Assembly: GCA_964557325.1 (NCBI GenBank)
Contig: CAZKZO010000002.1
Location: forward strand, 1-35,409
Direction of reading: 5' to 3'
Origin: Candidatus Woesearchaeota archaeon
Lineage (GTDB): Archaea > Nanobdellota > Nanobdellia > Pacearchaeales > GW2011-AR1
Length of the DNA: 35,409 nt
Both the position numbers and the translations under genes were made by a program. The stretch's first letter is position 1, and each line of letters begins with the position of its first letter. This document shows, piece by piece, positions 1 through 33,037 of this stretch. Below the pieces are notes generated by a model. It was not told where the DNA came from. It did no database searches and saw only the letters and a program-made list of their open reading frames with translations.

Positions 1-112
1 TTTAGTGATTCTGTCTTTTTTATCCATTACAGTTAAAAGAATTGTATTTTTTTAAATTTATTGAAACAGAAAATTTAAATAGAATTAATGCCTTGATTTG
101 ATATAAAAGAGA

Positions 113-880
113 ATGAAAAAGATATTTATTATCCTTGTAGTAATGTGTGTTTTTTTAGTTAGTGCTGGGATTTTGGTTGCATCTGAAGAAAATAATGTTG
201 GAGAAATACTTGAGAAAGTTGTTGGAAAAAATGTTTCTGTTCAGGCTAAAGCTTATATTGGAGAGTTTATTGAAAAAAGAGGAATTTCTGAGGATAAGGT
301 AAAAGATGTTAAAAAAGTTGATTTTAATGAATTGCCAAAAGAAGTAAATATTGAAAATATTAATGAAGCAAATTTAGATATTCATGAAGTAAGTTATGAC
401 AATCAAGGTAAAGATGAAAAAGTTTTTGTTATAAGTTATTCTGTTGATAAATTAAAAGCACAAGGTGATTTGATTGTGGCGCATGATAAAAGACAATTTT
501 TGAACTTTGGACATATTGGAATAATGAATGATTCTGGTTTTCTTACTACAGCTACAAATGTAGAGACAAGTAATTATAAAGGATATATAATGATGAGAAA
601 AGGGAGTATTACAGGAATTTCTACAAATTTAGAAGTTATTGGAAATAGCATTGAAAATCCAGGGAAAATAGAAATTATTATTCTTAAAAACGGAGAGCAA
701 ATAAGTTTTGGAAATACTATAAGTACAGATTCAGAAGGTGTGAAAAAAGATTATGATGTTCAGTCTAAAGGAGTTGTAGAGTTTGAGCAAGGTGATGTGA
801 TTTCTGCTTATGCTCACTTAGGTTCTGGTGTTGTTGTAAGAGATGTAATCAATTTAATTGAGATTACTACTGTAAATTAA
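113..880 (+). CDS. hypothetical secreted or membrane-anchored protein
   Basis: 255-aa ORF. The N-terminus MKKIFIILVVMCVFLVSAGILVA looks like a signal peptide or anchor. No catalytic motif recognised. Confidence 0.5.
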   Translation: MKKIFIILVVMCVFLVSAGILVASEENNVGEILEKVVGKNVSVQAKAYIGEFIEKRGISEDKVKDVKKVDFNELPKEVNIENINEANLDIHEVSYDNQGKDEKVFVISYSVDKLKAQGDLIVAHDKRQFLNFGHIGIMNDSGFLTTATNVETSNYKGYIMMRKGSITGISTNLEVIGNSIENPGKIEIIILKNGEQISFGNTISTDSEGVKKDYDVQSKGVVEFEQGDVISAYAHLGSGVVVRDVINLIEITTVN

Positions 881-15105: not shown

Positions 15106-15360
15106 ATGGAAATAAAATTTTCTTTTAAAGCTAAAAAACAATTAAAAAAATTAAATTTAAGATTTCAGAGTAAAATAATTGATTCTTTGGAAAAATTTGA
15201 AAAAGGTGGAAAATTAGATATAAAAAAATTAAAAGGAAGAAGTGAAGAATATCGTATAAGAGTTGGAAATTATAGAATAATTTTGAATAGAATTGGTAAA
15301 AAAGAGTTTGTAGTAACTAAAATTGGTGTTAGAGAAAGTATTTATTTTATTTTTGTTTAA
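15106..15360 (+). CDS. relE: RelE/ParE-family toxin (mRNA interferase type)
   Basis: 84 aa. KAKKQLKKL...KKLKGRSEEYRIRVGNYRIILNRIGKKEFVVTKIGVRESIY matches the RelE/ParE core pattern (Y-R-[IL]-R-V-G-D/N-Y-R-[IV]-I). Confidence 0.75.
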   Translation: MEIKFSFKAKKQLKKLNLRFQSKIIDSLEKFEKGGKLDIKKLKGRSEEYRIRVGNYRIILNRIGKKEFVVTKIGVRESIYFIFV

Positions 15361-15511: not shown

Positions 15512-15552
15512 ATTTTCATTAATTTTATTAACTCTGGTTTTTTTGTTTGATT

Positions 15553-16101
15553 ATGACTGAGAAAATAATTGTTTTTATTGATGGAAGTAATCATTATCAT
15601 ATAATAAAAGATTTAGTAGGTAAGTCTAAAAAAATAATTGACTTTGATTTTGAAAAATTTGTTGAATTATTTCTTGAGAAAAGAAAACTAGTTAGAATTT
15701 ATTATTATACAGCTCCTTTAGATAGGAAAAAAGACCAAAAAACATATATAAAACAACAAAAATTCTTTGAAAAACTTAGAAGAATATCTAATTTAAAATT
15801 AGTTCTTTGTAGAATGCAAAAAGTTAAAATTGATGGAAAAATTATTTATCAGGTTAAGGAAGATGATATTCATTTAGCAGTAGATATGTTAAGATTAGCT
15901 TATAATAATGCTTACGATTCTGCTATATTAGTTTCTTCAGATGGAGATTTTGTACCTGCAGTTCAAGCTGTTAAAGAATTGGGAAAGAATGTTGAAAATA
16001 TAGGATTTGAAAATAAATTTTCATATCACTTAAAGCAAGAGTGTGATAAATTTAAAAAATTAAATAAAAATCAAGTAAAATCTTGTTTTCCATTAAAATG
16101 A
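15553..16101 (+). CDS. NYN-domain (LabA/DUF88-like, PIN-related) putative ribonuclease
   Basis: IIVFIDGSNHYH near the N-terminus and ILVSSDGDFVPAVQAVKELGKNVENIGF near the C-terminus match the two conserved acidic motifs of LabA-like NYN domains. ATG 15553 is preferred over TTG 15547. The TGA stop overlaps the ATG of the next gene (ATGA). Confidence 0.65.
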   Translation: MTEKIIVFIDGSNHYHIIKDLVGKSKKIIDFDFEKFVELFLEKRKLVRIYYYTAPLDRKKDQKTYIKQQKFFEKLRRISNLKLVLCRMQKVKIDGKIIYQVKEDDIHLAVDMLRLAYNNAYDSAILVSSDGDFVPAVQAVKELGKNVENIGFENKFSYHLKQECDKFKKLNKNQVKSCFPLK

Positions 16102-23171: not shown

Positions 23172-23480
23172 TTATCTTGCATTCCATTGTAACTCTTTTT
23201 TATTTTTATATTTCTTAACTAATTCTGGATTCCAGACGTAAATTACATAGCCTTGATTATCATATCCTATTTTTCCTATACTTTCTAAATATTCAACTAT
23301 TACTTGAAATGTTTGCCACATTACTTTTTTAGGAAGATTCTTAAACAAATTTGTTTTTTTGTATTCTCCAGAGTTTTTATCTATAAATCTCTCAACCATT
23401 AAAACAGTTTGGAGTGTTGGGCTTCTCGCTATATTATTTAATTCAGCATAATTTTTTTTAATTGTTATTTTTGATTCCAT
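23172..23480 (-). CDS. hypothetical protein, possibly winged-helix
   Basis: 102-aa ORF (…QTFQVIVEYLESIGKIGYDNQGYVIYVWN…). It has no nucleotidyltransferase (MNT) motif, so it is not the cognate HepT antitoxin. Confidence 0.4.
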   Translation of the reverse strand: MESKITIKKNYAELNNIARSPTLQTVLMVERFIDKNSGEYKKTNLFKNLPKKVMWQTFQVIVEYLESIGKIGYDNQGYVIYVWNPELVKKYKNKKELQWNAR

Positions 23481-23587: not shown

Positions 23588-23607
23588 GATATACGCCCCG
23601 ACCGAAC
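23588..23607. repeat. att copy 1 (distal copy of the tRNA-Glu 3' end)
   Basis: gatatacgccccgaccga (23588-23605) is identical to 32942-32959, which overlaps the tRNA-Glu 3' end. acgccccgaccgaac (23593-23607) is identical to 31962-31976. Confidence 0.85.
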
Positions 23608-23620
23608 CGCCCGATAAATT

Positions 23621-23641
23621 GTGGAATTTAGGTGGGCTTTT
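23621..23641. repeat. sub-terminal inverted repeat, left arm
   Basis: gtggaatttaggtgggctttt matches the reverse complement of 31930-31950 (aaaagcccatctaaactctac) at 18 of 21 positions. It lies 14 bp inside att copy 1; the partner lies 12 bp inside att copy 2. Confidence 0.6.
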
Positions 23642-23682
23642 AGTATAATAATCATTAAAAATAAGTTTCTCAAGTTAAAAGT

Positions 23683-25698
23683 ATGGATATTTCGGGGAAA
23701 GTAAGTCTAAAGAGAATTGCCTATTATTTATCTATTAGTTCAATTTTAGTGATTTTTATACCATTTTTAATAAATCCCTCTTTCAATTTGAACAGCTATA
23801 GTATATTCGGAGATTATTTGGGTTTGATTACTGGATTAGCAGGGGTTATAGTGACTATCACTATTTTCTTAATACAAAATGCAAGCAAAGATTATTCTTC
23901 GCAACTTCTACGGATGACTTTCTTTAAAAATAAATATTTCATGTTTGTTTTAGGATATATCTTTTTAGCATTGATATTCTTCACTCTTGGAGCTACTTTT
24001 GAAATTGGAAATCAAGCCAAGATATTTGCATTTTTTGTTAGTGTGGGTTTGGTCTTTAATTTTGTTTCACTTTTGTTAGTCGCTTCATATTTTATGAATA
24101 TTTTAAATATAATAAAAGAAATTGAAATAGAAACAATACATTATATTTATTCTCGTGCTGAAGCAAAAACCTTACCTTTGATTGGTAAAATAAGTTTGAA
24201 CAAAATTTCAGAATCTAAAATAATAAATCAGATTAAACCAATTTTTGATACCCTCAACAAAAGCATTTCTCTGAATCAAGATGATATTTATACCGAATGT
24301 TTAAATTCATTAGATAAAATAATAAGAACCTATCTAAAACACACTAGTTCTTTTAAATCCCTTGAAGATAAAATATTGCTTGAATTGGCAGATCAATCTT
24401 CATTCATAATTAAGACTATGATTAAATATGAAAATCAAAAATTCATGGATAAATTTTCTTTATTCTTAGGGAATATTGGATCCTATATTTTAGAATACAG
24501 ATATAACATAGGTGGAGTTAACAATCATGCCTTATCAATAAGTAATCTGTTGTTTGAAATTTTTCTCAAGTCTTATAATTTTGATAGAACCTCCGCTCCA
24601 AAGTATTCAATCTCGGGCATATCAAAATTAGTTAAAAAATGTATACAAAAAGAATATTATCAATCTGCCCCAATTTATTATCACGAGTTGAAAAAGATAA
24701 TGGATTTGTGTATAAAAACCCCTTCTTTTTGGTCTGCAAATTTGATTCAGTATGCGTTTAATGAAATTAAAGAGGAGATAAATGAGTGTGTCCTTGCAGT
24801 CCAAAATAAAAAGGGTGTTGAATTACACTTTTTAAGAAGCCTCTTTTTAGATATTTTTGAAACTATCAAGAAATCTAGCCAAAGTTTTTCAGCAACACAT
24901 TATGATATGATTCTAAACTCAATGTTTAATCTAGAATCCGTCTTTGTTAAGATATCTAAAGTTCATCCACAATTACCCGTCTACAAAAAAGTTCCTGATA
25001 GCATTCTAAATCCTCTATTAGACAATTATGTAGATCTTTGTAAGAAAATACTAGAAGAAAATAATATTGATATTAGATTTATGTTTTTCTATTGCTTTCC
25101 CGAATTAATATTCTTAACTAAATATATCCAAAAGGCAGATGATAGGTTTAATGTTAAACATGAAGAACTATTTGCTTCCCTATTAAAAAGATTACATTTT
25201 GAATTTGAAAATGAGAAACAAAGTAATCTTGACAATCATTACTTTTATACTATTGAAGATTATTTCTCCATAATGATTTATTCTAAAGATAAAAATCTTT
25301 GTGAAAAACAGCTTTCTTTATTAGTTAAAAAATACAATGAGATTTTAAAGAGTAAAAAAATATCAGAACGTAATAAAAATAGGATTTATGGGTTGCTTAA
25401 AATTATTGGTGCGTTAATGGAAGGCGAAGATGAATTTAAGTCCTGTCAAGAAAGTATAACTAGAATAATCTCTCCTAACTTTAAAGAATACAAGCAGATT
25501 GGTAAGGCGCTACCTTCTTTTTTTGAACAATATGATTATCCTACCTTTAAACATACTTTTGATGACTGGTTTATTTCTCCACTCTCAATTTGGAATCCTG
25601 TTTGGCAAGATCAAATAAACGCATATTTTGATAAAAAATATAAATTTATCAATTACCATAAGAAACTTAAAAAATTACAAAACTCCAAAAAGAATTAA
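23683..25698 (+). CDS. polytopic membrane protein with large helical cytoplasmic domain, hypothetical
   Basis: 671 aa. About 4-5 N-terminal TM helices (residues ~10-140) are followed by about 500 aa of helix-rich sequence. No NTPase or nuclease motif was recognised. Confidence 0.5.
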   Translation: MDISGKVSLKRIAYYLSISSILVIFIPFLINPSFNLNSYSIFGDYLGLITGLAGVIVTITIFLIQNASKDYSSQLLRMTFFKNKYFMFVLGYIFLALIFFTLGATFEIGNQAKIFAFFVSVGLVFNFVSLLLVASYFMNILNIIKEIEIETIHYIYSRAEAKTLPLIGKISLNKISESKIINQIKPIFDTLNKSISLNQDDIYTECLNSLDKIIRTYLKHTSSFKSLEDKILLELADQSSFIIKTMIKYENQKFMDKFSLFLGNIGSYILEYRYNIGGVNNHALSISNLLFEIFLKSYNFDRTSAPKYSISGISKLVKKCIQKEYYQSAPIYYHELKKIMDLCIKTPSFWSANLIQYAFNEIKEEINECVLAVQNKKGVELHFLRSLFLDIFETIKKSSQSFSATHYDMILNSMFNLESVFVKISKVHPQLPVYKKVPDSILNPLLDNYVDLCKKILEENNIDIRFMFFYCFPELIFLTKYIQKADDRFNVKHEELFASLLKRLHFEFENEKQSNLDNHYFYTIEDYFSIMIYSKDKNLCEKQLSLLVKKYNEILKSKKISERNKNRIYGLLKIIGALMEGEDEFKSCQESITRIISPNFKEYKQIGKALPSFFEQYDYPTFKHTFDDWFISPLSIWNPVWQDQINAYFDKKYKFINYHKKLKKLQNSKKN

Positions 25699-26903
25699 TT
25701 GGGATAGCAATTTCCATCAACACCTAAATAATATCCAGTTGGACAGCTTACACAATCATTATTGTAACAATAAGAACCTTCTTCACAATAGGTTGTAGGA
25801 CTTCCACATGGCTCGTGACAATATCCATCATTACCTAGAATATATCCTTCTTCACAAGAGACACATTCTCCATTAAAACATTGTCCCGTTTCACAATAAG
25901 TTGTAGGGCTTCCACAAGCTTCATGGCATAAATCATCATCTCCTAAAACGTAACCTTTCTGACAACTTAATTCAGATTCATATTCATGACATTCTCCATT
26001 TGTAAAATATGAACCAGAGCTACAATAAATGAAGCTTTGTTCCTTTATAGAATTAAAATCAATTGCTATACTTGTTTGAGTTCCTGAAATCCAAGTATTA
26101 ATCCCAATTAAATTTCCTTGTTCATCAAATAAACCCCCACCACTACTTCCAAAATAAGTGTATGCATCTGATTCTATAGTTCTAAAATTATCTCCAGTTG
26201 ATTGAGAAAGAACATCTTTAATATCTGTGATTCTTCCTTCACTAATAGAAAATTCTACAACATTTTGGGCATAGGAAGGGTAGCCAACAGCAATAACCTT
26301 CTCATTTATTTCAAATTCATCCGTATAATAAGCAAAGTCATAACTTTTTGCATCAGAAGTTTTAATTTTTAATATTGCTAAATCTATATCTGATTCACTA
26401 AAAGAAACTCTATCCACATCATGTAGTTTTCCATCTTGTGTTCTAACTTGAAAACTTTCAGAAATTCTTTGGAAACAATTCATATCATTATATTCACAAT
26501 CAATAACGTGGCGATTAGTATAAATTGTTAATTCATTATCTTCATTTGCAACAATCACGCCCGAACCAGTCTCACCACTTTCAAAATAAGAGCCATCCAC
26601 ATTTTTTATAGTAACATCATATTTAACCCACACAATTGTTTGTTTTATTTCATCTTTTACACTCTCTACGTCATTGGTTTCTGATTCTGTATAATTCTTG
26701 GCTTGGAGATATTCCTCATAACTATTATAATATTTCCCATCATAAAAATAGGTTCCATGGTTTTCGTCATCACTTTCAGTGTTCTCATAATTTGGTGATT
26801 GAAAAATTATGAAAAGAACTATAAAAAATAATACTATTGTAGCACCTTTCCATAAAGTGCTTTTTTTGATTTGAATTTCACTTTTTCTTTTCTTTTTACT
26901 CAT
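25695..26903 (-). CDS. membrane-anchored trypsin-like (S1) serine protease with C-terminal Cys-rich tandem repeats
   Basis: Catalytic triad context: TNRHVIDC (His), DIDLAILKI (Asp), GSSGGGLF (Ser). N-terminal anchor: WKGATIVLFFIVLFIIF. The C-terminus has about 2.5 repeats of C..GY.LG.D..CHE.CGSPTTYCE.G.C.N..CVSC. Confidence 0.8.
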   Translation of the reverse strand: MSKKKRKSEIQIKKSTLWKGATIVLFFIVLFIIFQSPNYENTESDDENHGTYFYDGKYYNSYEEYLQAKNYTESETNDVESVKDEIKQTIVWVKYDVTIKNVDGSYFESGETGSGVIVANEDNELTIYTNRHVIDCEYNDMNCFQRISESFQVRTQDGKLHDVDRVSFSESDIDLAILKIKTSDAKSYDFAYYTDEFEINEKVIAVGYPSYAQNVVEFSISEGRITDIKDVLSQSTGDNFRTIESDAYTYFGSSGGGLFDEQGNLIGINTWISGTQTSIAIDFNSIKEQSFIYCSSGSYFTNGECHEYESELSCQKGYVLGDDDLCHEACGSPTTYCETGQCFNGECVSCEEGYILGNDGYCHEPCGSPTTYCEEGSYCYNNDCVSCPTGYYLGVDGNCYPN

Positions 26904-26953
26904 GATATAATATTATGACATGTCTCTTTTAAGCATTGCTATTTATTTGTATC

Positions 26954-27178
26954 ATGAAGAAGAGGAAGCCATTAGAGATAAAAAAGAAGATTCTAAATGT
27001 TCTGAGAGAAAATAAAGAGCTATCTTTAAGAGAATTAGATATTAAAGTTAATACGGGGTATCGAACAATAAAAGACTAGATAGAAGAATTAGAGTTCTTC
27101 AGGTTGGTTGAAGTAATAAAACATAAAAAGAATCTAAAAACAGGAAGACCTTATACTAGTGTTAGATTGAAACATTAA
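26954..27178 (+). pseudogene. small wHTH regulator with an in-frame TAG
   Basis: Manual translation: MKKRKPLEIKKKILNVLRENKELSLRELDIKVNTGYRTIKD, then TAG at 27077-27079, then IEELEFFRLVEVIKHKKNLKTGRPYTSVRLKH*. The sequence reads as one continuous winged-helix protein across the stop. Confidence 0.5.
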
Positions 27179-27795
27179 ACTCTAAAAATATCGTCTAGTT
27201 CGGGATTCCTATATTGAGTTTTTTTCACAATTGGTTTTGGTCTATCTGATTCATTCATGGTAATCTGTTTCAATGAACTATCCCAATTATGCTTGCAAGA
27301 AGTACATGTAAAATAATCTTTTATAACTCGCACAATTTCAACCCATTTCTTTTTCTTTTTGTCTTTAACTCTATCTTTAACTGTTCCATCTGTAAAAAGG
27401 TAGACTATGGTGTCATAATATTCATGAGGTATTTTTTCTTCTTTGATTGTTTCTCGCCCAACATGTTTTTTTGTAAATATCTTTTTACAATGCGGGCACT
27501 GGTTCTGATATATTAACCCTGTAAGGAAGCCCAGACCTATTGTTATAGCAACTAGAGAGGGAAATTTAGCCCATTCCCAATAAAATCCTGCAAGAGATAA
27601 AATTGCAAAGAAAACTGTTAAAAATAGTCCTACTGCAAAAGCGTTTATTTTAGAGATGTCAAAATGAGAGCTTCTGTTGCCTTTCATTATTGTACTCTTA
27701 CCTTTAATTCTTGAATATAAGAAAACTACACTTCCAGAAATAACTGTTGCTATGAGGCTAGCAATTATGCCTTCAAAAATATTCTGGAAGTTCAT
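27175..27795 (-). CDS. 3-TM membrane protein with cytoplasmic Zn-ribbon
   Basis: 206 aa. It has three hydrophobic helices, then CPHC ... CTSC (two CxxC pairs about 60 aa apart) and a poly-K stretch. Confidence 0.5.
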   Translation of the reverse strand: MNFQNIFEGIIASLIATVISGSVVFLYSRIKGKSTIMKGNRSSHFDISKINAFAVGLFLTVFFAILSLAGFYWEWAKFPSLVAITIGLGFLTGLIYQNQCPHCKKIFTKKHVGRETIKEEKIPHEYYDTIVYLFTDGTVKDRVKDKKKKKWVEIVRVIKDYFTCTSCKHNWDSSLKQITMNESDRPKPIVKKTQYRNPELDDIFRV

Positions 27796-28044
27796 ATATT
27801 CTATAGTTTTGTTGGGTTTTAAATTGTTTTTATTTTGTCAATTTAATTTAATATTTAAAGTCATTTACTAGCTAATAACGTTATTTGACAATGAATGTTA
27901 TTATTTAACAACATTTGAATGCATTTAAGTTGTTTAAATGTTTTAAATAACGTTTCAAATATTCTTTTAAATTGTTCATTTGGAACGTTTGTGTTGTTTT
28001 AAAGGTTCTAAATGTTTGAATTTTCTAAAGATTCTAAATGTCCT

Positions 28045-28458
28045 TCACTTTCCACGTTTTTTAAGTATTTTAAGAAAATAATCAAAATAAGGTAAAGATC
28101 TTTGAACTATTTCAATCCCTCTTTTTACTTGTTCCCAAGCCGTTTTTCTAACCCTATATTTTCCACCTTCTAACCTTTCAAGATACCCTTTTCTTACTAG
28201 CTTATCACAAGCTTTCTTATAATCTGTATAATTTGATCTACCATAAGCCCTTGCAATTTCACGATAGGTCTCAGGTTTGTTATTGTATTTTGAAAAATAA
28301 GCCAAAACAGCCATTTGAGACTTAGTCCATAAAGTGTATTCTTTTACCCAAATACCTCTTTCTTTCCTTACTCCCATAATTCCTTTATCACCAGATTTTT
28401 TAATTTTCCTTTCAATTTTCTCCGCTTCTTCTCCAATTAATTCTTTTGAATTGCTCAT
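28045..28458 (-). CDS. winged-helix DNA-binding protein (element regulator)
   Basis: 137 aa. YREIARAYGRSNYTDYKKACDKLVRKGYLERLEGGKYRV is a typical wHTH recognition helix plus wing. Confidence 0.6.
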   Translation of the reverse strand: MSNSKELIGEEAEKIERKIKKSGDKGIMGVRKERGIWVKEYTLWTKSQMAVLAYFSKYNNKPETYREIARAYGRSNYTDYKKACDKLVRKGYLERLEGGKYRVRKTAWEQVKRGIEIVQRSLPYFDYFLKILKKRGK

Positions 28459-28612
28459 TTTGTGCGATTATAATATTTTACTCGCATTCTCGCTTATATA
28501 GTTTTTTGATTTTTACTTTTTATGAAAACATTAGAAGAAAAGATTGAGAGAATCTTGTTTATATTGGAAAATCTGGAATTGAGAATTTATAGAAAAATCT
28601 TGGATAAGGAGA

Positions 28613-28792
28613 ATGAAGAAAAACTCACATCTACACATATTGATAGAAACTAGCCTTTTGAATAAACTTAAAGTTGAAGCTCAGGAGAAGAATATATCTT
28701 TAGGACAGCTTTGCAGATCCAAATTAGGAAAACAGCCACAATTGGATAGAATTGAAGGGAAGTTGGATAGGGTTTTGAAAAAACAAAACTAA
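28613..28792 (+). CDS. ribbon-helix-helix (CopG-like) small protein
   Basis: 59-aa ORF below the ORF-track cutoff, found by manual translation: MKKNSHLHILIETSLLNKLKVEAQEKNISLGQLCRSKLGKQPQLDRIEGKLDRVLKKQN. A beta-strand followed by two helices fits the RHH pattern. Its stop overlaps the STAS-like gene stop by 4 nt (ctaa). Confidence 0.45.
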   Translation: MKKNSHLHILIETSLLNKLKVEAQEKNISLGQLCRSKLGKQPQLDRIEGKLDRVLKKQN

Positions 28793-29103
28793 GCAATAAC
28801 CTTTCTTTGTCTATTAACTTTAAATGGAACTTCTAGACCAACGTTTTCATATTGGATATAAACATTTTTGAACATGTTATAAACTTCATTTGACATATTA
28901 GCTTCTACAATTTTCTTTGTAGATAATTTTTTCTGTTTCAAATACTCATCTGCACAAGATCTGGAAATAAACTCCACTTTATCAAAATCCAAGATAATCT
29001 CTTTATTCTTTAAAGAGTTGAGTTTCCTAAAAAAATCAGAAATGGAACTCCTAGTGAAGATATTATTGCCAAATTCGTGTGTCAACAATATCTTGTTATC
29101 CAT
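28789..29103 (-). CDS. STAS-like single-domain protein (DUF4325-like)
   Basis: 104 aa. FTRSSISDFFRKLNSLKNKEIILDFDKVEFISRSCADEYL matches the DUF4325/STAS-like consensus as I recall it (R..g..l...l....kv.LDF.gV..is.SF.dE). It starts 34 bp after the GHKL gene. Confidence 0.6.
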   Translation of the reverse strand: MDNKILLTHEFGNNIFTRSSISDFFRKLNSLKNKEIILDFDKVEFISRSCADEYLKQKKLSTKKIVEANMSNEVYNMFKNVYIQYENVGLEVPFKVNRQRKVIA

Positions 29104-29137
29104 ATTAGTAATAGAAGGATAATCTATTTAAAACTTA

Positions 29138-29998
29138 CTATTCCACAAAATTATAGATGTTTAACTTATTTTTAGGAGTCTTTAATCTGAGATAAACAAA
29201 GGTTCCTTTAACCGAATTTCCCTCTAGATCATAAAGAATCGGTTCTTTTTCAGATCTAATAATTAGTATACCTCTTCTTGATATGATGTAAAGTTCTCCT
29301 TTTAGCCCTTCTATAGACAACTTTTTGCAAGTTCTTAATCCAAATCCCCTCATTTCCTCATTACTTTTAGTTGTAACTTCACCCCAAACAGCCTTTTTTA
29401 TTGCTTCTTGGTCTCCATTAAAGGAAATATTGTGTTTTTCAAATAATTTTGGGATAGATACCCCATTATCAAAAACCGCAATATCTACCATTTTCTTTGT
29501 AGGATAATATTGTGCCATTAGAGAAGCACATTCAAATTCAGAATGGTCATCTATATTATCTGAAAGCTCTCCCAAGATATATTTTATACTCTCTCCAAAC
29601 TGATAAGGCAATTTTTCTTCAATTTTGGTTATAAGTTCGTTTACTTGTCTGTTAACTTGATTTCTATCTTCAGTGTCCTTTTTGAAATGTTTTATTGAAA
29701 CATAAGAACCTCCATCCTCTTCATTTCCTAAAGGGAATCCAATCTTTTTCATATGCTCACGAACTTTTTCGTTTTGTGGTTCTTTATACATGACACTTTG
29801 TGCACCATGATCTAAAAATTCCCTTATTTTATTACTTATTAATATCATAGAACATGGAATAAACCATTGAATATCTGATAGATCAATAGAAATTTTTTGG
29901 GTTTGATTAAATTCTTTTTCCATATCATTCATAACTTTCACAGCTACAGTAATATGTTCTAGAACGTTATCTCCGCTTGGGAACTCTATTTTAATCAT
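29138..29998 (-). CDS. GHKL-superfamily ATPase (SpoIIAB/RsbW-like) with N-terminal STAS-like region
   Basis: N-box ILGELSDNIDDHSEF (E-x3-N-x3-H), G1-like VFDNGVSIP, G2 RGFGLRT, terminal strand GTFVYLRL. The N-terminal ~90 aa (ISIDLSDIQWFIPCSMILISNKIREFLDHG) look like a second STAS-type module. It starts 43 bp after the integrase stop. Confidence 0.65.
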   Translation of the reverse strand: MIKIEFPSGDNVLEHITVAVKVMNDMEKEFNQTQKISIDLSDIQWFIPCSMILISNKIREFLDHGAQSVMYKEPQNEKVREHMKKIGFPLGNEEDGGSYVSIKHFKKDTEDRNQVNRQVNELITKIEEKLPYQFGESIKYILGELSDNIDDHSEFECASLMAQYYPTKKMVDIAVFDNGVSIPKLFEKHNISFNGDQEAIKKAVWGEVTTKSNEEMRGFGLRTCKKLSIEGLKGELYIISRRGILIIRSEKEPILYDLEGNSVKGTFVYLRLKTPKNKLNIYNFVE

Positions 29999-30041
29999 AC
30001 GTTATTTTACAAATAAGACTTTTTATTTATTTCTAAACCAT

Positions 30042-31199
30042 TCACAATCTATCCAACAACTTATCAATCTTAATTACTGCTTCCATAAACTTGTCAACTT
30101 TTTCTTCTATTGCAATTATTCTGTCTTGGAGTATTTCTCTTTCTGTATTGCTTTCTTTTAGGTTCCTTTCTATTTCTGTTTTTTCTTCAGAGAGAATTAA
30201 ATCATCTTGAGAAATAGTATCCTTCATCCCTAACATTTCAGAATAATAATGAATCTTGTCCGATTTCTTCCATCCAAAACGATATTTTAATGCTGATTCT
30301 GATTTATATCTTGGAAGCCAATAACAACAAGAACAATGTCTAAAATCATACATTGTTAATTTAGAGTAAAATTCTCCAGCAAGACTTTTTTCTTCACCCA
30401 AAACTCTTTTTGCTAATCTTTGTAAATAAACATTAACACTTGAAGGCTTTATTGGAAATAGGTAATTATCATCTTTTAACCCATTCTCATTAACATAATC
30501 TTTAATGTATTGTGTACAAAGTAAAAGTTTAATTTTCCTTCCAAAAGTCTTGCTTACCTCGTCTCTTATAACTAATTCCTTAAAACCACTATAAAAATCA
30601 GAAACCTTGATGTTAACTAGTTCTGTAGGGGATCTTATTCCAGAATCATAAAGTAACATAATTAAGACCTTGTATTTCCATTGAGCATTATTACAAAGCT
30701 TTCTTACTTGTTCTTCCGTTAGATAAACCCAACGGGGTTTTTCAGAGCGGGAATCTAAGTCATTAGTTATATCTTGAATTTCAATACCTTCTTTTTTACT
30801 AATTTTTTGATACCAATGCCAAAATGCTTTGAATATCTTAACAAAGTAAGCTGTAGATTGATATTTCTTACCATCATTTCTTGTTATTTCTCCTTTTCTC
30901 ATTTTTGAAAAGAATAGAACTAGTTGATTCTCTGTAATGTCTGTTATACAATTTAAATTGTAAACTTCTTTAAATCTTCTAGCGAAGAACCCTAATTTTT
31001 CTCTTAAAGTATTAAGCCTTATGTAACTTCTCCCACCCTTAACGCTCTTTAAAGATACATTTAAACCATGCTCCATATCATTTAGGTATTGAAGAATTAT
31101 ATCTGAATTTCTCTTAGAAATGTTTGGAATTCCTTTAAATGAAACTTGGGCTTTCCATTCTTTGTATCTTTTTTCGTGGTTATACGGATCAATTCTCAT
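30042..31199 (-). CDS. tyrosine recombinase / integrase
   Basis: 385 aa. YDSGIRSPTELVNIKVSDF (catalytic Arg I), SKTFGRKIKL (Lys), MYDFRHCSCCYW (Arg II / His), FGWKKSDKIHYYSE (Trp/His and Tyr nucleophile). A coiled-coil C-terminal tail follows. It lies about 760 bp from att copy 2. Confidence 0.8.
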   Translation of the reverse strand: MRIDPYNHEKRYKEWKAQVSFKGIPNISKRNSDIILQYLNDMEHGLNVSLKSVKGGRSYIRLNTLREKLGFFARRFKEVYNLNCITDITENQLVLFFSKMRKGEITRNDGKKYQSTAYFVKIFKAFWHWYQKISKKEGIEIQDITNDLDSRSEKPRWVYLTEEQVRKLCNNAQWKYKVLIMLLYDSGIRSPTELVNIKVSDFYSGFKELVIRDEVSKTFGRKIKLLLCTQYIKDYVNENGLKDDNYLFPIKPSSVNVYLQRLAKRVLGEEKSLAGEFYSKLTMYDFRHCSCCYWLPRYKSESALKYRFGWKKSDKIHYYSEMLGMKDTISQDDLILSEEKTEIERNLKESNTEREILQDRIIAIEEKVDKFMEAVIKIDKLLDRL

Positions 31200-31267
31200 C
31201 TAAGAGATAGTCAGAATTACTTTTTAATCAACCGCAACAATTTCGCAACATGTTGTGGAGTTGAACA

Positions 31268-31714
31268 TCATTTCTTTTTGAAAGAATTATATAAAAAGAG
31301 AGCAATCTTTTTAATTAATACAAACGCTATCAAAAACATAAATATGTATAAAATTACTATAACAATTTGAGAGAGTGTTGTTAGAATTTCGTTTGAATTT
31401 GGACTATCTTTTATCGTTACCCATGCGAAAATCGTTGTGGCTAAAGCTAAAATCCATGTGGCATTTCTTAAACTATCGGTTGCATGAACTAATTTTTTTT
31501 GTATATGGAAATTTTGTACAATCATGGCTTTTTCTAAGTCTTTTTCTTGGAAATTAAATACTGGGGATTGAAAGATAGCCATTATATCTTTAGAATACTC
31601 TTTTAGTGATTTTTTGAAATCTTCTCTTTCTATATACTCTTCAGAACTTTTTTCTTGATTATTTTTCCACAAATTTTGAATTTTCTTAATTAGTTTCATT
31701 TTAATCAGATTCAT
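31268..31714 (-). CDS. hypothetical protein with two C-terminal TM helices
   Basis: 148 aa. A charged helical N-terminal half is followed by WILALATTIFAWVTI and IVIVILYIFMFLIAFVLI. It overlaps the upstream 69-aa ORF by 14 nt. Confidence 0.45.
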   Translation of the reverse strand: MNLIKMKLIKKIQNLWKNNQEKSSEEYIEREDFKKSLKEYSKDIMAIFQSPVFNFQEKDLEKAMIVQNFHIQKKLVHATDSLRNATWILALATTIFAWVTIKDSPNSNEILTTLSQIVIVILYIFMFLIAFVLIKKIALFLYNSFKKK

Positions 31715-31910
31715 TCAGAAGTTTATATATTCTATAACCCCAATAAGTTACTATAAGAATCGGAGCTAGTTTAAATGCAATAAATCCAACTATGCATCCA
31801 AACAGACTGATTTCACATAATGTTTCATAAAATACTTCTCTAAGTATTGAAAGTATTGGAAATAAGATTATTGTGATTATTAGTTTTTTCATAAAATCCC
31901 AAAGAATCAA
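31701..31910 (-). CDS. small 2-TM membrane protein
   Basis: 69 aa. It has two hydrophobic helices (LIITIILFPILSIL; GCIVGFIAFKLAPILIVTYW). It is the first gene inside att copy 2. Confidence 0.4.
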   Translation of the reverse strand: MILWDFMKKLIITIILFPILSILREVFYETLCEISLFGCIVGFIAFKLAPILIVTYWGYRIYKLLNESD

Positions 31911-31929
31911 TATTTTATAAATATCGTGT

Positions 31930-31950
31930 AAAAGCCCATCTAAACTCTAC
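31930..31950. repeat. sub-terminal inverted repeat, right arm
   Basis: aaaagcccatctaaactctac. See the left arm at 23621-23641. Confidence 0.6.
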
Positions 31951-31961
31951 AAAGAATATCA

Positions 31962-31976
31962 ACGCCCCGACCGAAC
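31962..31976. repeat. att copy 2 (internal)
   Basis: acgccccgaccgaac is identical to 23593-23607. The core cgccccgaccga is shared with the tRNA-Glu 3' end. Confidence 0.8.
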
Positions 31977-31992
31977 GCAAGACAAAAGTGTC

Positions 31993-32889
31993 TCAGTTAG
32001 GGTTTTTTAAATACCTACCATATTCAGCTAAGTATCTTCTAAAAAACCATTGAATAAATATATTGTCGTCTTGGTTTACCTGTGATCTTTCTAAGGCATT
32101 ATAATAACTACTTCTCTTTGTGTAATGAATATCCAACATCGGAAACTTGAATTTTTTTAAGACAAAATTCATCATTAATCTTGAAATTCTACCATTGCCA
32201 TCTGTGAAAGGGTGAATAGTTACAAATTTTAGATGAACTAAAGCTGCTAATTCAACAGGGTACATTTTATTTTTTTCTCTATTATACCAGTCAAAAAATT
32301 CTTTCAAAAGGGTTTCTAACTCCAAATGCATTGGGGGTTTAAACTTTGATTGAGAAATTGCGATATCGTGATTTCTTGTTTTGCCTGCTATGTCTTTTGC
32401 TGTTTCCTTCATTAGGTCCTTATGCCATTTTAATACAATTTGCAAATTCAAATCTTTTTCATAATCAAGCATTTCAAAGAAGACTTCTTTATGTGCCTCA
32501 GCCTCTTTAACATCTCTTAAAGGCTTTGATGCAGGAGTTATTCCATCTTCCAATAATTTAGCAGTATCTTTTAATGTAAGAGTGCTTCCTTCAATTCTTT
32601 GAGTATTGTAAGTAAATTGAACTGCAAAAGTATCTTTTTTCTTCTTTCTTGCAGAAACAGGCATTGCCTTATACTCTTTATCAAAATTCTTCTGAATCTT
32701 ATTTATGTTTCCAAAGAACTTTTCTTTGTAAAATTCCTGCATAAACTCTTTCTTCTTTTCTCTTATATCTTTTGGGATATTCTCGCCTAAGTAAAATTGT
32801 TTCTTCTTTACAGATTTGCCTTCTCGGTAGCTATGACCAAGATAAAAATATTTTCTGTTGCCTTTTTGCATTTCTTTAATTTCTACCAT
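31993..32889 (-). CDS. fic: Fic-family protein (AMPylase type) with N-terminal inhibitory motif
   Basis: Canonical Fic motif HPFTDGNGRISR (HxFx[DE]GNGRxxR). The upstream TQRIEG fits the [ST]xxxE[GN] auto-inhibitory helix motif. Confidence 0.9.
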   Translation of the reverse strand: MVEIKEMQKGNRKYFYLGHSYREGKSVKKKQFYLGENIPKDIREKKKEFMQEFYKEKFFGNINKIQKNFDKEYKAMPVSARKKKKDTFAVQFTYNTQRIEGSTLTLKDTAKLLEDGITPASKPLRDVKEAEAHKEVFFEMLDYEKDLNLQIVLKWHKDLMKETAKDIAGKTRNHDIAISQSKFKPPMHLELETLLKEFFDWYNREKNKMYPVELAALVHLKFVTIHPFTDGNGRISRLMMNFVLKKFKFPMLDIHYTKRSSYYNALERSQVNQDDNIFIQWFFRRYLAEYGRYLKNPN

Positions 32890-32941
32890 AAGAATTCTTA
32901 TACCTACATCTTTATAAATTTATTGTTTTTGTTAAAATGTA

Positions 32942-32959
32942 GATATACGCCCCGACCGA
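32942..32959. repeat. att copy 3 (overlaps the 3' end of tRNA-Glu)
   Basis: gatatacgccccgaccga is identical to 23588-23605. Positions 32948-32959 are the last 12 nt of the tRNA. Confidence 0.85.
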
Positions 32960-33020
32960 GATTCGAACTCGGGTCACGGCCTTGAAAGGGCCGCATTCTT
33001 GGCCACTGAACTATCGGGGC
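32948..33020 (-). tRNA. tRNA-Glu(UUC)
   Basis: Hand-folded 73-nt cloverleaf: GCCCCGA-TA-GTTC-AGTGGCCAA-GAAT-G-CGGCC-CTTTCAA-GGCCG-TGAC-CCGAG-TTCGAAT-CTCGG-TCGGGGC-G. The anticodon TTC is at + strand 32984-32986. No CCA is encoded. Confidence 0.85.
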
Positions 33021-33037
33021 ATAATTAAGTTAGTAAA

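What the first reader, a model, noticed from the sequence alone, without database searches (positions are those of the whole stretch)
28613..31199. Integrase-linked GHKL ATPase + STAS-like (DUF4325-like) gene pair on an archaeal integrated element: candidate undescribed partner-switch or defence module
- Gene layout: the three genes integrase (30042-31199), a 286-aa protein (29138-29998) and a 104-aa protein (28789-29103) sit on the minus strand with gaps of only 43 and 34 bp, so they probably form an operon.
- The 286-aa protein has the Bergerat-fold motifs of GHKL ATPases/kinases: N-box ELSDNIDDH, G1-like DNGVS, G2 GFGL. It also has an N-terminal region that itself looks STAS-like.
- The 104-aa protein matches the STAS-like DUF4325 pattern (IILDFDKVEFISRSCADEYL).
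- GHKL kinase + STAS antagonist is the logic of bacterial partner-switching modules (SpoIIAB/SpoIIAA, RsbW/RsbV). Their output there is a sigma factor, and archaea have none.
- The pair is instead cargo of a tRNA-integrated element. It is bracketed by RHH and wHTH regulators, and the RHH stop overlaps the STAS gene stop.
- That context suits an element-encoded switch: abortive infection or defence, superinfection control, or control of excision.
- I know of no named defence system with this composition, but I cannot search to confirm that.
Basis: partly seen in the sequence, partly recalled or inferred. Interest (0 to 1): 0.8.

Follow-up and report, generated by a model that had tools for sequence, protein, structure and literature searches.

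The report
Archaeal kinase–STAS switch lacking an effector
An element integrated in a DPANN-type archaeal genome carries a two-gene kinase-plus-substrate switch related to the bacterial DNA-damage sensors CapK/CapS and VapK/VapS (described in 2026), but without the toxin or DNA-binding output those have, so what it controls is unknown.

Summary
Three co-directional genes lie at the stated coordinates: integrase, a 286-aa STAS-like+GHKL protein ("K") and a 104-aa STAS-like protein ("S"). They sit in an ~8.4-kb segment bounded by direct repeats of the tRNA-Glu 3' end.

K and S form a conserved two-gene module. S directly follows K in 41/41 informative loci, from DPANN archaea to methanogens, Thermoplasmata and Bacteroidia. 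The pair also occurs in provirus psiM100 and Bacteroides phage BF1-TP2.

It is not undescribed. It is a distant homologue of the VapK/VapS and CapK/CapS pairs (EMBO J 2026). There, an ssDNA-activated Ser kinase phosphorylates a STAS protein to release a PIN toxin or a repressor. The ATP-binding motifs, VapK's functionally required aromatic residue (window W45) and the phospho-acceptor serine (S49, possibly S47) are invariant here.

The difference is the output:
- there is no VapC/PIN gene (0/40 loci);
- S has no wHTH domain and no conserved tail;
- no third gene is conserved.

The integrase, RHH and wHTH neighbours are not family traits, although integrase adjacency recurs on several elements and phages.

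Verdict: a new archaeal, effector-less variant of a known kind. The kinase-substrate logic is well supported; the output (defence, or control of the element) is inferred.

The parts
29138..29998 (-). K: a 286-aa VapK-like protein. It has an N-terminal STAS-like sensor domain (aa 1 to ~130, 29609-29998) and a C-terminal GHKL Ser-kinase domain (aa ~131-286, 29141-29608).
   Evidence: - Pfam HATPase_c scores 29.8 bits, above the cut-off.
- The AF2 model has pLDDT 89.9. Its top PDB matches are SpoIIAB (E 3.8e-6, TM 0.65-0.69).
- The family profile matches VapK across both domains (37.8 bits, E 6e-14) and CapK (20.2 bits).
- Invariant residues: W45 (codon 29864-29866), which aligns with VapK F54, and N148 (codon 29555-29557), which aligns with CapK N218.
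28789..29103 (-). S: a 104-aa protein with only a STAS-like (DUF4325-like) domain, the presumed kinase substrate. Candidate phospho-acceptors are S49 (codon 28957-28959) and S47 (codon 28963-28965).
   Evidence: - DUF4325 scores 20.1 bits, below the cut-off, but it is the consistent hit in 26/38 family members.
- The AF2 model (pLDDT 87.8) matches STAS domains best (RsbV-like TM1442, RsbS, SLC26 STAS, SpoIIAA).
- The profile matches VapS at 13.2 bits, E 4e-6.
- The core F45-I-S-R-S-C-A-D-E-Y54 is invariant.
- S49 aligns with the CapS phospho-serine S54.
30042..31199 (-). Tyrosine recombinase (integrase) of the integrated element, 43 bp upstream of K and co-directional with it.
   Evidence: - Pfam Phage_integrase scores 29.3 bits, above the cut-off; NCBIfam XerA_Arch gives E 3.8e-14.
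- It is not a conserved partner of K-S.
- The same integrase->K->S layout occurs in L033 (Micrarchaeota, beside tRNA-Asn) and in Burkholderia phage vB_E188.
32942..32959 (.). att core within the 3' end of tRNA-Glu(UUC). The tRNA spans 32947-33021 (-).
   Evidence: ARAGORN identified the tRNA. An 18-nt exact direct repeat of this core lies at 23588-23605, and a 13-nt repeat lies at 31962-31974.
31962..31976 (.). Internal att copy. It separates a 1-kb Fic-only islet (31975-32947) from the integrase-bearing element.
   Evidence: The sequence ACGCCCCGACCGA(AC) is shared with the tRNA end (13 nt) and with the distal copy (15 nt).
23588..23605 (.). Distal att copy, the far boundary of the ~8.4-kb integrated element (23588-31974).
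   Evidence: The 18-nt sequence GATATACGCCCCGACCGA is identical to the tRNA-Glu 3' end and its flank.
28613..28792 (+). RHH-like small ORF, convergent with S. It is local context only and not part of the conserved module.
   Evidence: The CopG_antitoxin hit is weak (E 0.012). No homologue lies next to K-S in any other locus.
28045..28458 (-). wHTH protein resembling the AbiEi N-terminal domain. It is local context only and not part of the conserved module.
   Evidence: PADLOC AbiEi gives E 8.7e-7 for the N-terminal wHTH only. The protein does not recur next to K-S elsewhere.

Best explanation
K and S are a self-contained, horizontally mobile kinase-substrate switch. They belong to the CapK/CapS-VapK/VapS family and have the VapK/VapS domain architecture.

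**Shown or strongly supported**
- K is a two-domain protein: a STAS-like sensor domain plus a SpoIIAB-like GHKL kinase domain. All its ATP-binding motifs are intact.
- S is a STAS-only protein with an invariant Ser-Arg-Ser at the N-terminus of helix 2.
- The two genes are always adjacent.

**Inferred by homology**
- A nucleic-acid signal, most likely ssDNA made during DNA damage or virus replication, binds the groove between K's two domains. This groove holds invariant W45 and the basic hairpin around K168.
- Binding switches on the kinase. K then phosphorylates S, at S49 or possibly S47.
- Phosphorylation breaks a protein-protein interface made by the STAS core.

**Inferred from context**
- S has no wHTH domain and no conserved inhibitory tail, and no toxin gene is linked. 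The released or inhibited partner must therefore be encoded in trans (a host or element protein), or be K or S itself.
- The net role is a conflict function expressed from the integrated state: abortive infection or superinfection defence, or stress-triggered growth arrest. This fits the module's occurrence as cargo beside integrases on integrated elements, proviruses and temperate phages, and in variable islands with toxin-antitoxin cassettes.
For: **Homology and key residues**
- The profile of 36 K homologues matches VapK over both domains (37.8 bits, E 6.4e-14, profile 35-273 to VapK 44-290). It matches CapK at 20.2 bits.
- W45 and P48 align with VapK F54 and P57. The F54A mutation abolishes VapKSC defence (PMC13373217).
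- N148 aligns with CapK N218, a kinase-dead mutant site.
- The basic hairpin aligns with CapK K237/K239, residues predicted to contact ssDNA.
- The S profile matches VapS (E 3.6e-6), and S49 aligns with CapS phospho-S54.

**Fold**
- K's best PDB matches are SpoIIAB. S's best matches are STAS domains, including SpoIIAA, RsbS and an RsbV homologue.

**Synteny**
- S follows K on the same strand in 41/41 informative loci, down to 26-32% identity.
- Only these two genes are conserved across the loci.

**Mobility and conflict context**
- The window copy lies in an att-bounded element at tRNA-Glu.
- L033 shows tRNA-Asn->integrase->K->S.
- In provirus psiM100 the pair is the content of inserted fragment IFa.
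- Phage copies occur in Bacteroides phage BF1-TP2, Burkholderia vB_E188 (int->K->S) and Marinitoga MPV1 (K->S next to a serine integrase).
- Neighbours include ParE, NYN/HEC-09, SNase, MNT-like PDC-M05A, a type I restriction enzyme, RhuM and MADS genes.
- Split K genes in 4 loci suggest the module is dispensable.
Against: - No biochemistry exists for this clade.
- The S-to-VapS match is weak, the S-to-CapS match is not significant, and DUF4325 is below Pfam's cut-off.
- The exact phospho-acceptor is ambiguous. VapS S48 aligns with window R48, and CapS S54 with window S49.
- CapK's ssDNA-stacking W68 does not align by sequence with W45; only VapK F54 does.
- No effector is identified, so the defence output is guilt by association. 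Most neighbours are housekeeping genes, no PADLOC model hits K, and no copy of the DPANN subclade was found on viral contigs.
- The K-S complex could not be modelled here.
Confidence: 0.6

Rival explanations
1. Element-autonomous induction switch. K-S serves the integrated element or provirus itself. It senses DNA damage (ssDNA) and, by phosphorylating S, relieves repression of excision and replication. This would be an SOS-like input for elements in hosts that lack LexA/RecA-type repressor cleavage.
For: - K-S lies directly beside the integrase in the window, in L033 (Micrarchaeota), in Burkholderia vB_E188 and in Marinitoga MPV1. In the Francisella KIRK prophage it lies within the lysogeny module.
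- Relatives respond to DNA damage and control transcription or a bound partner.
- In the window the pair is flanked by RHH and wHTH regulators.
Against: - About 36 of 40 loci of the clade have no integrase within 6 kb, and the RHH and wHTH regulators do not recur.
- The integrase-proximal position is also the classic site for lysogeny-expressed defence genes.
- The KIRK prophage already has a LexA-like S24 CI repressor.
- S lacks a DNA-binding domain.
Confidence: 0.15
2. Self-contained two-gene toxin-antitoxin system. K, or unphosphorylated S, is itself the toxic component and the partner neutralises it, so no third protein is needed.
For: - Strictly two conserved genes; 32/40 loci have no co-directional downstream ORF.
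- The module lies among ParE, MNT and NYN cassettes.
- Distribution is patchy and mobile, with occasional pseudogenes.
- Two loci have tandem K paralogues with a single S (L040, L041).
Against: - In the characterised relatives K is only a sensor kinase and S only an inhibitor or repressor.
- Neither protein shows a recognisable toxin domain.
- A kinase toxin would need host substrates, for which there is no evidence.
Confidence: 0.15
3. Housekeeping stress-signalling partner switch of the host, with no role in conflict. It would be analogous to RsbW/RsbV and regulate a host transcription factor or enzyme.
For: - The fold is similar to SpoIIAB/SpoIIAA.
- Many neighbours are housekeeping genes.
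- The paper itself notes that the line between immunity and stress response is blurred.
Against: - There is no conserved neighbour, phosphatase or target.
- The module is present on phages, proviruses and att-bounded elements.
- It occurs sporadically across distant phyla of two domains of life.
- Some copies are split genes.
Confidence: 0.08
4. K is a GHKL ATPase rather than a protein kinase (MORC-, MutL- or Hsp90-like) that acts on DNA or on client proteins, with S as an adaptor.
For: - Distant family members weakly hit the GHKL module at the N-terminus of a long DISARM DrmA model.
- Hsp90 and GyrB appear among the structural matches.
Against: - The top structural matches by E-value and TM-score are the minimal Ser kinase SpoIIAB.
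- K has no transducer/S5 domain; the protein ends right after the Bergerat fold.
- The homologue CapK is shown to phosphorylate its STAS partner.
Confidence: 0.04

Closest known systems
[quoted passage not shown]
   Same: - K has the same architecture as VapK: STAS-like + GHKL, with no HTH.
- There is a full-length profile match (37.8 bits, E 6e-14).
- W45/P48 correspond to F54/P57, and the E-x3-N-x3-HS N-box is shared.
- S is a small STAS-only protein with a conserved Ser in the same loop.
- Gene order is K then S, and the module is mobile.
- A canonical annotated example (ATP-binding + STAS-like + PIN) was seen on Deinococcus gobiensis plasmid P5.
   Different: - No VapC/PIN gene in the window or in any of the 40 loci of the clade.
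- S lacks a conserved C-terminal inhibitory helix (VapS 94-116). Its tail is short, variable, modelled with low confidence and sometimes absent.
- The conserved Ser is shifted by one residue, and the motif is SRS(F/C)A(D/E)E(Y) instead of (S/T)-(A/P)-F.
- The hosts are archaea.
- Sequence identity is low.
CapK/CapS, a DNA-damage-activated kinase plus STAS-wHTH repressor that controls adjacent immune operons (same paper)
   Same: - A GHKL kinase with a preceding STAS-like domain, immediately followed by a STAS-domain substrate gene.
- The catalytic Asn (N148 to N218) and the basic hairpin (K237/K239 region) are conserved.
- Window S49 aligns with CapS phospho-S54.
   Different: - K has no N-terminal HTH and S has no wHTH, so it cannot be a DNA-binding repressor of this type.
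- No immune operon follows the pair; a convergent RHH ORF does.
- S against CapS is not significant, and K against CapK scores only 20 bits.
SpoIIAB/SpoIIAA and RsbW/RsbV partner-switching modules
   Same: These are the best structural matches for the GHKL domain (SpoIIAB, TM 0.65-0.69), and S has a STAS fold. The logic of a Ser kinase phosphorylating a STAS protein at the N-terminus of a helix is shared.
   Different: - No sigma factor exists in archaea (established knowledge).
- No PP2C phosphatase is linked.
- K has an extra sensor domain.
- The module is mobile cargo, not a developmental or stress regulon.
psiM100 ORFB/ORFC (homologues MTH315/MTH316) and other 'ATP-binding protein + DUF4325/STAS-like protein' pairs annotated in phages
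   Same: These are direct relatives of the same two-gene clade. ORFB scores 139 bits and ORFC 73 bits against the window-family profiles. BF1-TP2 gp43 and gp42 score 109 and 29 bits. They are two-gene with no PIN, and are inserted as accessory cargo.
   Different: They are only annotated as hypothetical proteins; no function was assigned. They give no mechanism, only evidence that viruses carry the module.

Membership tests
GHKL (Bergerat-fold) ATPase/kinase superfamily | Match to Pfam HATPase_c above the curated cut-off | tested here: met
   29.8 bits against a cut-off of 26.4, aa 137-273.
GHKL (Bergerat-fold) ATPase/kinase superfamily | N-box (E...N), G1 (DxG) and G2 (GxGL) motifs conserved | tested here: met
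   E144, N148, D177, G179, R217, G220 and L221 are invariant in 36 homologues.
GHKL (Bergerat-fold) ATPase/kinase superfamily | Bergerat fold | tested here: met
   The AF2 model has pLDDT 89.9. Foldseek returns SpoIIAB at E 3.8e-6 and TM 0.65-0.69, then Hsp90, GyrB and DesK.
STAS / DUF4325 (STAS-like) | Pfam DUF4325 or STAS above the curated cut-off | tested here: not met
   DUF4325 scores 20.1 bits against a cut-off of 23. 26/38 family members hit at E<=0.1, all below the cut-off; STAS hits 3/38. The relationship is distant.
STAS / DUF4325 (STAS-like) | STAS fold | tested here: met
   In the model (pLDDT 87.8) the top PDB matches are all STAS domains. TM1442 gives TM 0.57 and RsbS 0.53-0.58; SLC26 STAS and SpoIIAA also match, at probability 0.9-1.0 but E only 3e-3 to 0.1.
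VapKSC | K = STAS + GHKL without an HTH, homologous to VapK | tested here: met
   Directed hmmsearch gives 37.8 bits, E 6.4e-14, covering both domains.
VapKSC | Conserved aromatic residue at the VapK F54 position (required for defence; proposed to stack on ssDNA) | tested here: met
   Invariant W45 aligns with F54, and invariant P48 with P57.
VapKSC | S = STAS-only protein with an absolutely conserved Ser/Thr in the STAS domain, encoded right after K | tested here: met
   S47 and S49 are invariant. S follows K in 41/41 loci. The profile matches VapS at E 3.6e-6. The position is offset by one residue relative to VapS S48.
VapKSC | VapS C-terminal helix that occludes the VapC active site | tested here: not met
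   The tail (aa 89-104) is variable, has pLDDT ~60 and is absent in several members.
VapKSC | Third gene encoding a VapC-like PIN toxin | tested here: not met
   0/40 loci have one, and 32/40 have no co-directional ORF within 200 bp. The positive controls were detected: the Deinococcus plasmid PIN and the Javan172 PIN.
CapK/CapS | CapK has an N-terminal HTH; CapS has a C-terminal wHTH | tested here: not met
   K begins directly with the STAS-like domain. S is 104 aa of STAS only. Alignments start at CapK residue 99, and there is no match to CapS.
CapK/CapS | The pair sits upstream of an immune operon that it regulates | tested here: not met
   In the window a convergent RHH ORF follows S. Downstream genes in the 40 loci are unrelated to each other.
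CapK/CapS and VapK/VapS | Kinase activity on the STAS serine, activated by ssDNA | not testable with these tools
   This needs biochemistry or complex modelling. Only residue conservation could be shown.
SpoIIAB/SpoIIAA-type partner switch | The kinase also sequesters an output protein (a sigma factor), and a PP2C phosphatase resets the switch | tested here: not met
   No conserved third gene of any kind. Archaea lack sigma factors (established knowledge).
tRNA-integrating element with a tyrosine recombinase | An integrase, plus direct repeats of the tRNA 3' end that bound the insert | tested here: met
   The integrase is identified. Exact repeats of 18, 15 and 13 nt lie at 32942, 31962 and 23588.

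The most novel reading that the evidence does not exclude
The effector-less K-S pair may be the ancestral, cross-domain form of the CapK/VapK family. It would be a portable sensor of DNA damage or ssDNA that mobile elements and viruses of archaea and bacteria place next to their integrase. Phosphorylation of the STAS protein would then control a trans-encoded target. That target could be the element's own lysogeny or excision machinery (an SOS-like input in organisms without LexA), or a conserved host factor, which would give abortive infection. If so, this would be the first phospho-STAS signalling pathway in archaea, including DPANN.
Probability: 0.2. Interest if true: 0.8.

Novelty: new variant of a known kind. 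Interest (0 to 1): 0.55.

Why it matters
CapK/CapS and VapK/VapS were described only in bacteria, and always with a recognisable output: an adjacent immune operon repressed through a wHTH domain, or a PIN toxin.

This locus shows three things:
- The same sensor-kinase/STAS-substrate core exists in archaea, including DPANN lineages, methanogens and the provirus psiM100.
- A large clade consists of the two genes alone.
- That form recurs as integrase-proximal cargo on integrated elements and temperate phages of both domains.

The K family is large: 4,116 clusters at 50% identity match at E<=1e-3. The two-gene form may therefore be common and is functionally unexplained.

Finding its target would show how a portable ssDNA/DNA-damage sensor is wired into host or element physiology without a dedicated effector. 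It would also give a handle on anti-virus or induction signalling in archaea, where such pathways are poorly known. Cultured or isolated systems that carry the pair exist: Methanothermobacter (provirus psiM100), Methanobacterium oryzae DSM 11106 and Bacteroides fragilis phage BF1-TP2.

Tried and rejected
- **PADLOC, NCBIfam and PDB sequence searches with K and S.** No named system hit K. S gave only PDC-M13C at E 0.02. PDB sequence searches gave nothing for K, and only a marginal VapS hit (E 0.59) for S.
- **Integrase, RHH and wHTH as parts of the system.** Rejected. BLAST of all window-element proteins against 42 loci found no recurrent RHH or wHTH. Integrases occurred in about 4 loci.
- **A hidden third conserved gene.** All-against-all clustering found only K and S to be universal. 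VapC-like PIN searches were negative, while the positive controls were found.
- **Enrichment for a fixed defence partner.** Pfam and PADLOC tallies of about 208 neighbours show heterogeneous genes, each defence family appearing once or twice. I could not compute a background-corrected enrichment.
- **Viral-contig scans for the DPANN subclade.** The K profile found one Methanosalsum provirus. The S profile found none.
- **CapS homology of S.** Not significant.
- **CapK W68 as the equivalent of W45.** The sequence alignment does not support this; only VapK F54 aligns.
- **The 346-aa gene in the L009 islet as an integrase.** Rejected.
- **The weak 'DrmA' PADLOC hits of distant K relatives.** These reflect a GHKL module fused to a helicase model, not DISARM membership.
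- **The sigma-70 promoter scan.** Uninformative for an archaeon.

Full report
**1. The observation**

The three minus-strand ORFs are present exactly as described. They are the integrase (30042-31199), a 286-aa protein here called K (29138-29998) and a 104-aa protein here called S (28789-29103). The gaps are 43 and 34 bp. A convergent 59-aa RHH-like ORF overlaps the S stop codon.

K passes the Pfam threshold for HATPase_c (29.8 bits against 26.4). S hits DUF4325 below threshold (20.1 bits against 23). The integrase passes Phage_integrase and resembles archaeal XerA.

Both K and S are real genes. K has 76 homologues, almost all 280-290 aa long. S has 99 homologues, about 105 aa long. The two sets occur on the same contigs.

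The host is archaeal. The window encodes the archaea-specific ThrRS editing domain. The closest K homologues lie in Woesearchaeota and Pacearchaeota MAGs. GC content is about 28%.

**2. The integrated element**

tRNA-Glu(UUC) lies at 32947-33021 on the minus strand. Its GC-rich 3' end is repeated directly at two places:
- 23588-23605, an 18-nt exact repeat;
- 31962-31974, a 13-nt repeat, or 15 nt when compared with the distal copy.

The window therefore holds an ~8.4-kb element (23588-31974). Its genes are the integrase, K, S, the RHH ORF, a wHTH protein, a membrane protein with a zinc ribbon, a secreted trypsin-like protease and a 671-aa membrane protein. Next to the tRNA there is also a 1-kb islet that carries only a Fic/SoFic-like gene. 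The claim of a 'tRNA-integrated element' is supported.

**3. Anatomy of K and S**

*K.* The alignment of 36 homologues shows these invariant residues in the GHKL domain:
- N-box: E144, N148, H152 and S153;
- G1: D177-x-G179, then I182 and P183;
- T210;
- G2: R217-G-x-G220-L221.

The N-terminal domain has its own invariant set: D39, W45, P48, C49 and the G87-F-P-x-G91 motif.

The AF2 model is confident (pLDDT 89.9, pTM 0.89). Its best PDB matches are the minimal Ser kinase SpoIIAB (E 3.8e-6, TM 0.65-0.69), ahead of Hsp90, GyrB and DesK.

*S.* The core F45-I-S47-R-S49-C-A-D-E-Y54 is invariant, and the C-terminal tail is variable. The model (pLDDT 87.8) has a beta-alpha-beta-alpha-beta-alpha fold. 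Its best matches are STAS domains: the RsbV-like TM1442, RsbS, SLC26 STAS and SpoIIAA.

**4. The module is exactly two genes**

I collected 43 loci from reference genomes and metagenomes. They cover DPANN lineages, Methanosalsum, Methanobacterium, Thermoplasmata and Bacteroidia. Of these, 41 are informative. All 41 have S directly downstream of K on the same strand, including pairs where K is only 26-32% identical to the window K.

All-against-all clustering shows that no other gene is shared by more than 6 loci. The RHH and wHTH proteins never recur. An integrase of the window's family lies within 6 kb in about 4 of 40 loci.

Neighbours are heterogeneous. Housekeeping genes are mixed with:
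- small toxin-antitoxin-type cassettes (ParE, a wHTH-nucleotidyltransferase of the PDC-M05A type with its partner, NYN/HEC-09, SNase);
- single occurrences of a type I restriction enzyme, RhuM, MADS mad2/mad3, PD-Lambda-1, PycC-like and AriA-like proteins.

Four loci have split K genes, which may be pseudogenes or assembly errors. Two loci have tandem K paralogues with a single S.

The K family as a whole is large. It matches 4,116 clusters (50% identity) at E<=1e-3, nearly all 250-310 aa long and matching full-length.

**5. What is known**

A literature search found Chambers et al., EMBO J 2026 (PMC13373217).

*CapK/CapS.* CapK (HTH-STAS-GHKL) is activated by ssDNA. It phosphorylates CapS (STAS-wHTH) on S54. 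This dissociates the repressor dimer and de-represses adjacent immune operons.

*VapKSC.* VapK (STAS-GHKL) phosphorylates VapS (STAS plus a short C-terminal helix) on S48. This releases the PIN toxin VapC. VapK F54A, VapS S48A and VapC D28A each abolish phage defence.

The paper mentions no archaeal members, no DUF4325 and no two-gene form. No other paper does either. [quoted passage not shown]

**6. Direct test of homology**

I took the VapK, VapS, CapK and CapS sequences from the paper's supplementary files. I scored them against the window-family profiles as single comparisons:

| Profile | Target | Bits | E-value | Region aligned |
|---|---|---|---|---|
| K | VapK | 37.8 | 6.4e-14 | profile 35-273 to VapK 44-290 (both domains) |
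| K | CapK | 20.2 | 1.5e-8 | profile 48-189 to CapK 99-262 |
| S | VapS | 13.2 | 3.6e-6 | profile 4-45 to VapS 2-45 |
| S | CapS | - | not significant | - |

Residue correspondences:
- W45 and P48 align with VapK F54 and P57.
- N148 aligns with CapK N218.
- The basic hairpin around K167/K168 aligns with CapK K239/R240, next to K237.

In a joint alignment of diverse S proteins, window S49 falls on CapS S54, the residue before a conserved F/C. VapS S48 falls one residue earlier, on window R48.

The window's clade includes archaea, Bacteroidia, psiM100 and BF1-TP2. It has a distinctive SRS(F/C)A(D/E)E(Y) motif.

**7. How it differs**

The window's clade has none of the known outputs:
- K has no HTH, and S has no wHTH.
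- The S tail is short, variable and sometimes absent.
- No VapC-like PIN gene is present in 0/40 loci, and 32/40 loci have no co-directional ORF within 200 bp.

The PIN search detected its positive controls. These were the annotated PIN of the three-gene system on Deinococcus gobiensis plasmid P5, and an unannotated PIN ORF after the pair in Streptococcus phage Javan172.

Other two-gene copies without PIN:
- provirus psiM100, where ORFB+ORFC lie in 'inserted fragment IFa' together with part of ORFD (139 and 73 bits);
- Bacteroides phage BF1-TP2, annotated 'ATP-binding protein' + 'DUF4325 domain-containing protein';
- Burkholderia phage vB_E188, with the order integrase->K->S;
- Marinitoga phage MPV1, with K->S next to a serine integrase.

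In Micrarchaeota locus L033 the order is tRNA-Asn->integrase->K->S. This mirrors the window.

**8. Mechanism**

*Well supported.* K is an active GHKL Ser kinase with a sensor domain, and S is its STAS substrate.

*Inferred by homology.*
- K is activated by ssDNA or a related nucleic-acid signal, through the W45/basic groove.
- It phosphorylates S49, or possibly S47.
- Phosphorylation disrupts an interface made by the STAS core.

*Inferred from context.*
- The partner of S is encoded in trans, or is K or S itself.
- The role is a conflict function, expressed from the integrated state. Candidates are abortive infection, superinfection defence or stress-triggered arrest.

*Rivals.*
- An element-autonomous induction or excision switch.
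- A self-contained toxin-antitoxin system.
- A housekeeping stress switch.
- A non-kinase ATPase.

*Limits.* There is no biochemistry for the clade. The S-level homology is weak. No effector is identified. No background-corrected enrichment could be computed. No complex model could be run.

**9. Verdict**

The claim of 'undescribed' is now outdated, because CapKS and VapKSC have been published. The integrase, RHH and wHTH linkage is local rather than a trait of the family.

The locus is a new variant of a known kind: archaeal and effector-less. Interest is moderate (0.55). The open question is what a portable DNA-damage-type sensor controls when no output gene travels with it.

Noticed in passing
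window 31975-32947 (Fic gene at 31993-32889, -): A Fic/SoFic-like gene (Pfam Fic E 1e-21; PADLOC PDC-S04 1e-31 and SoFic 1e-29) sits alone in a 1-kb islet between two copies of the tRNA-Glu att core. This looks like a tandem mini-insertion or remnant at the same tRNA. A 40%-identical Fic gene lies on the other side of tRNA-Ser from K-S in L009.
   Followed up: partly
window 23172-23480 (-); L008:1718-2011, L012:7274-7558, L018:4241-4507, L027:4953-5267: A 102-aa protein with no Pfam or PADLOC hit lies just outside the distal att copy. It recurs within a few kb of K-S in four other DPANN loci. There it is paired with a ~108-aa partner that is missing from the window. It may be another small mobile cassette of unknown function.
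   Followed up: partly
L046:4727-5257 (+) (Streptococcus phage Javan172, MK448860.1): An unannotated 176-aa ORF directly after the K-S pair is a VapC-like PIN protein (phmmer E 9e-15 against the Deinococcus gobiensis plasmid PIN). This prophage therefore carries a complete three-gene VapKSC beside its integrase, although the record annotates only a 39-aa ORF there.
   Followed up: yes
L040:1666-3903 and L041:4947-7156: A Bacteroidota MAG and Methanobacterium oryzae each have two tandem K paralogues followed by a single S gene.
   Followed up: no
L011, L020, L021, L031 (K gene regions): In four loci the K gene is split into two ORFs while S is intact. These are either decaying copies or MAG assembly errors.
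   Followed up: no
L009:4658-4671 and 7425-7438: A 14-nt direct repeat of the tRNA-Ser end brackets a 2.75-kb islet that holds only K, S and a 346-aa protein. That protein has no detectable relatives in PDB and is not similar to the window integrase.
   Followed up: partly
window 15106-15360 (+) and 15547-16101 (+): A small ORF at 15106-15360 clusters with a ParE-toxin family found near K-S in other loci. The gene at 15547-16101 is a NYN nuclease (Pfam NYN 4e-30; PADLOC HEC-09 2e-20). They lie about 13 kb from the pair, outside the element, and relatives of both recur near K-S elsewhere.
   Followed up: partly
window 25695-26903 (-) and 23683-25698 (+): Other cargo of the element: a 402-aa trypsin-like protease with an N-terminal membrane anchor or signal sequence and Cys-rich C-terminal repeats (it hits only the protease domains of PADLOC LmuA and RT-protease models), and a 671-aa multi-pass membrane protein (a weak DUF2254 hit). 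Their function is unknown.
   Followed up: no
Distant K relatives P0263, P0287, P0313, P0324: The GHKL domains of distant family members weakly match the N-terminal ~130-270 positions of a 1,750-position PADLOC 'DrmA' model (best E 3.6e-9). This suggests a related GHKL module is fused to some DISARM-type helicases.
   Followed up: no
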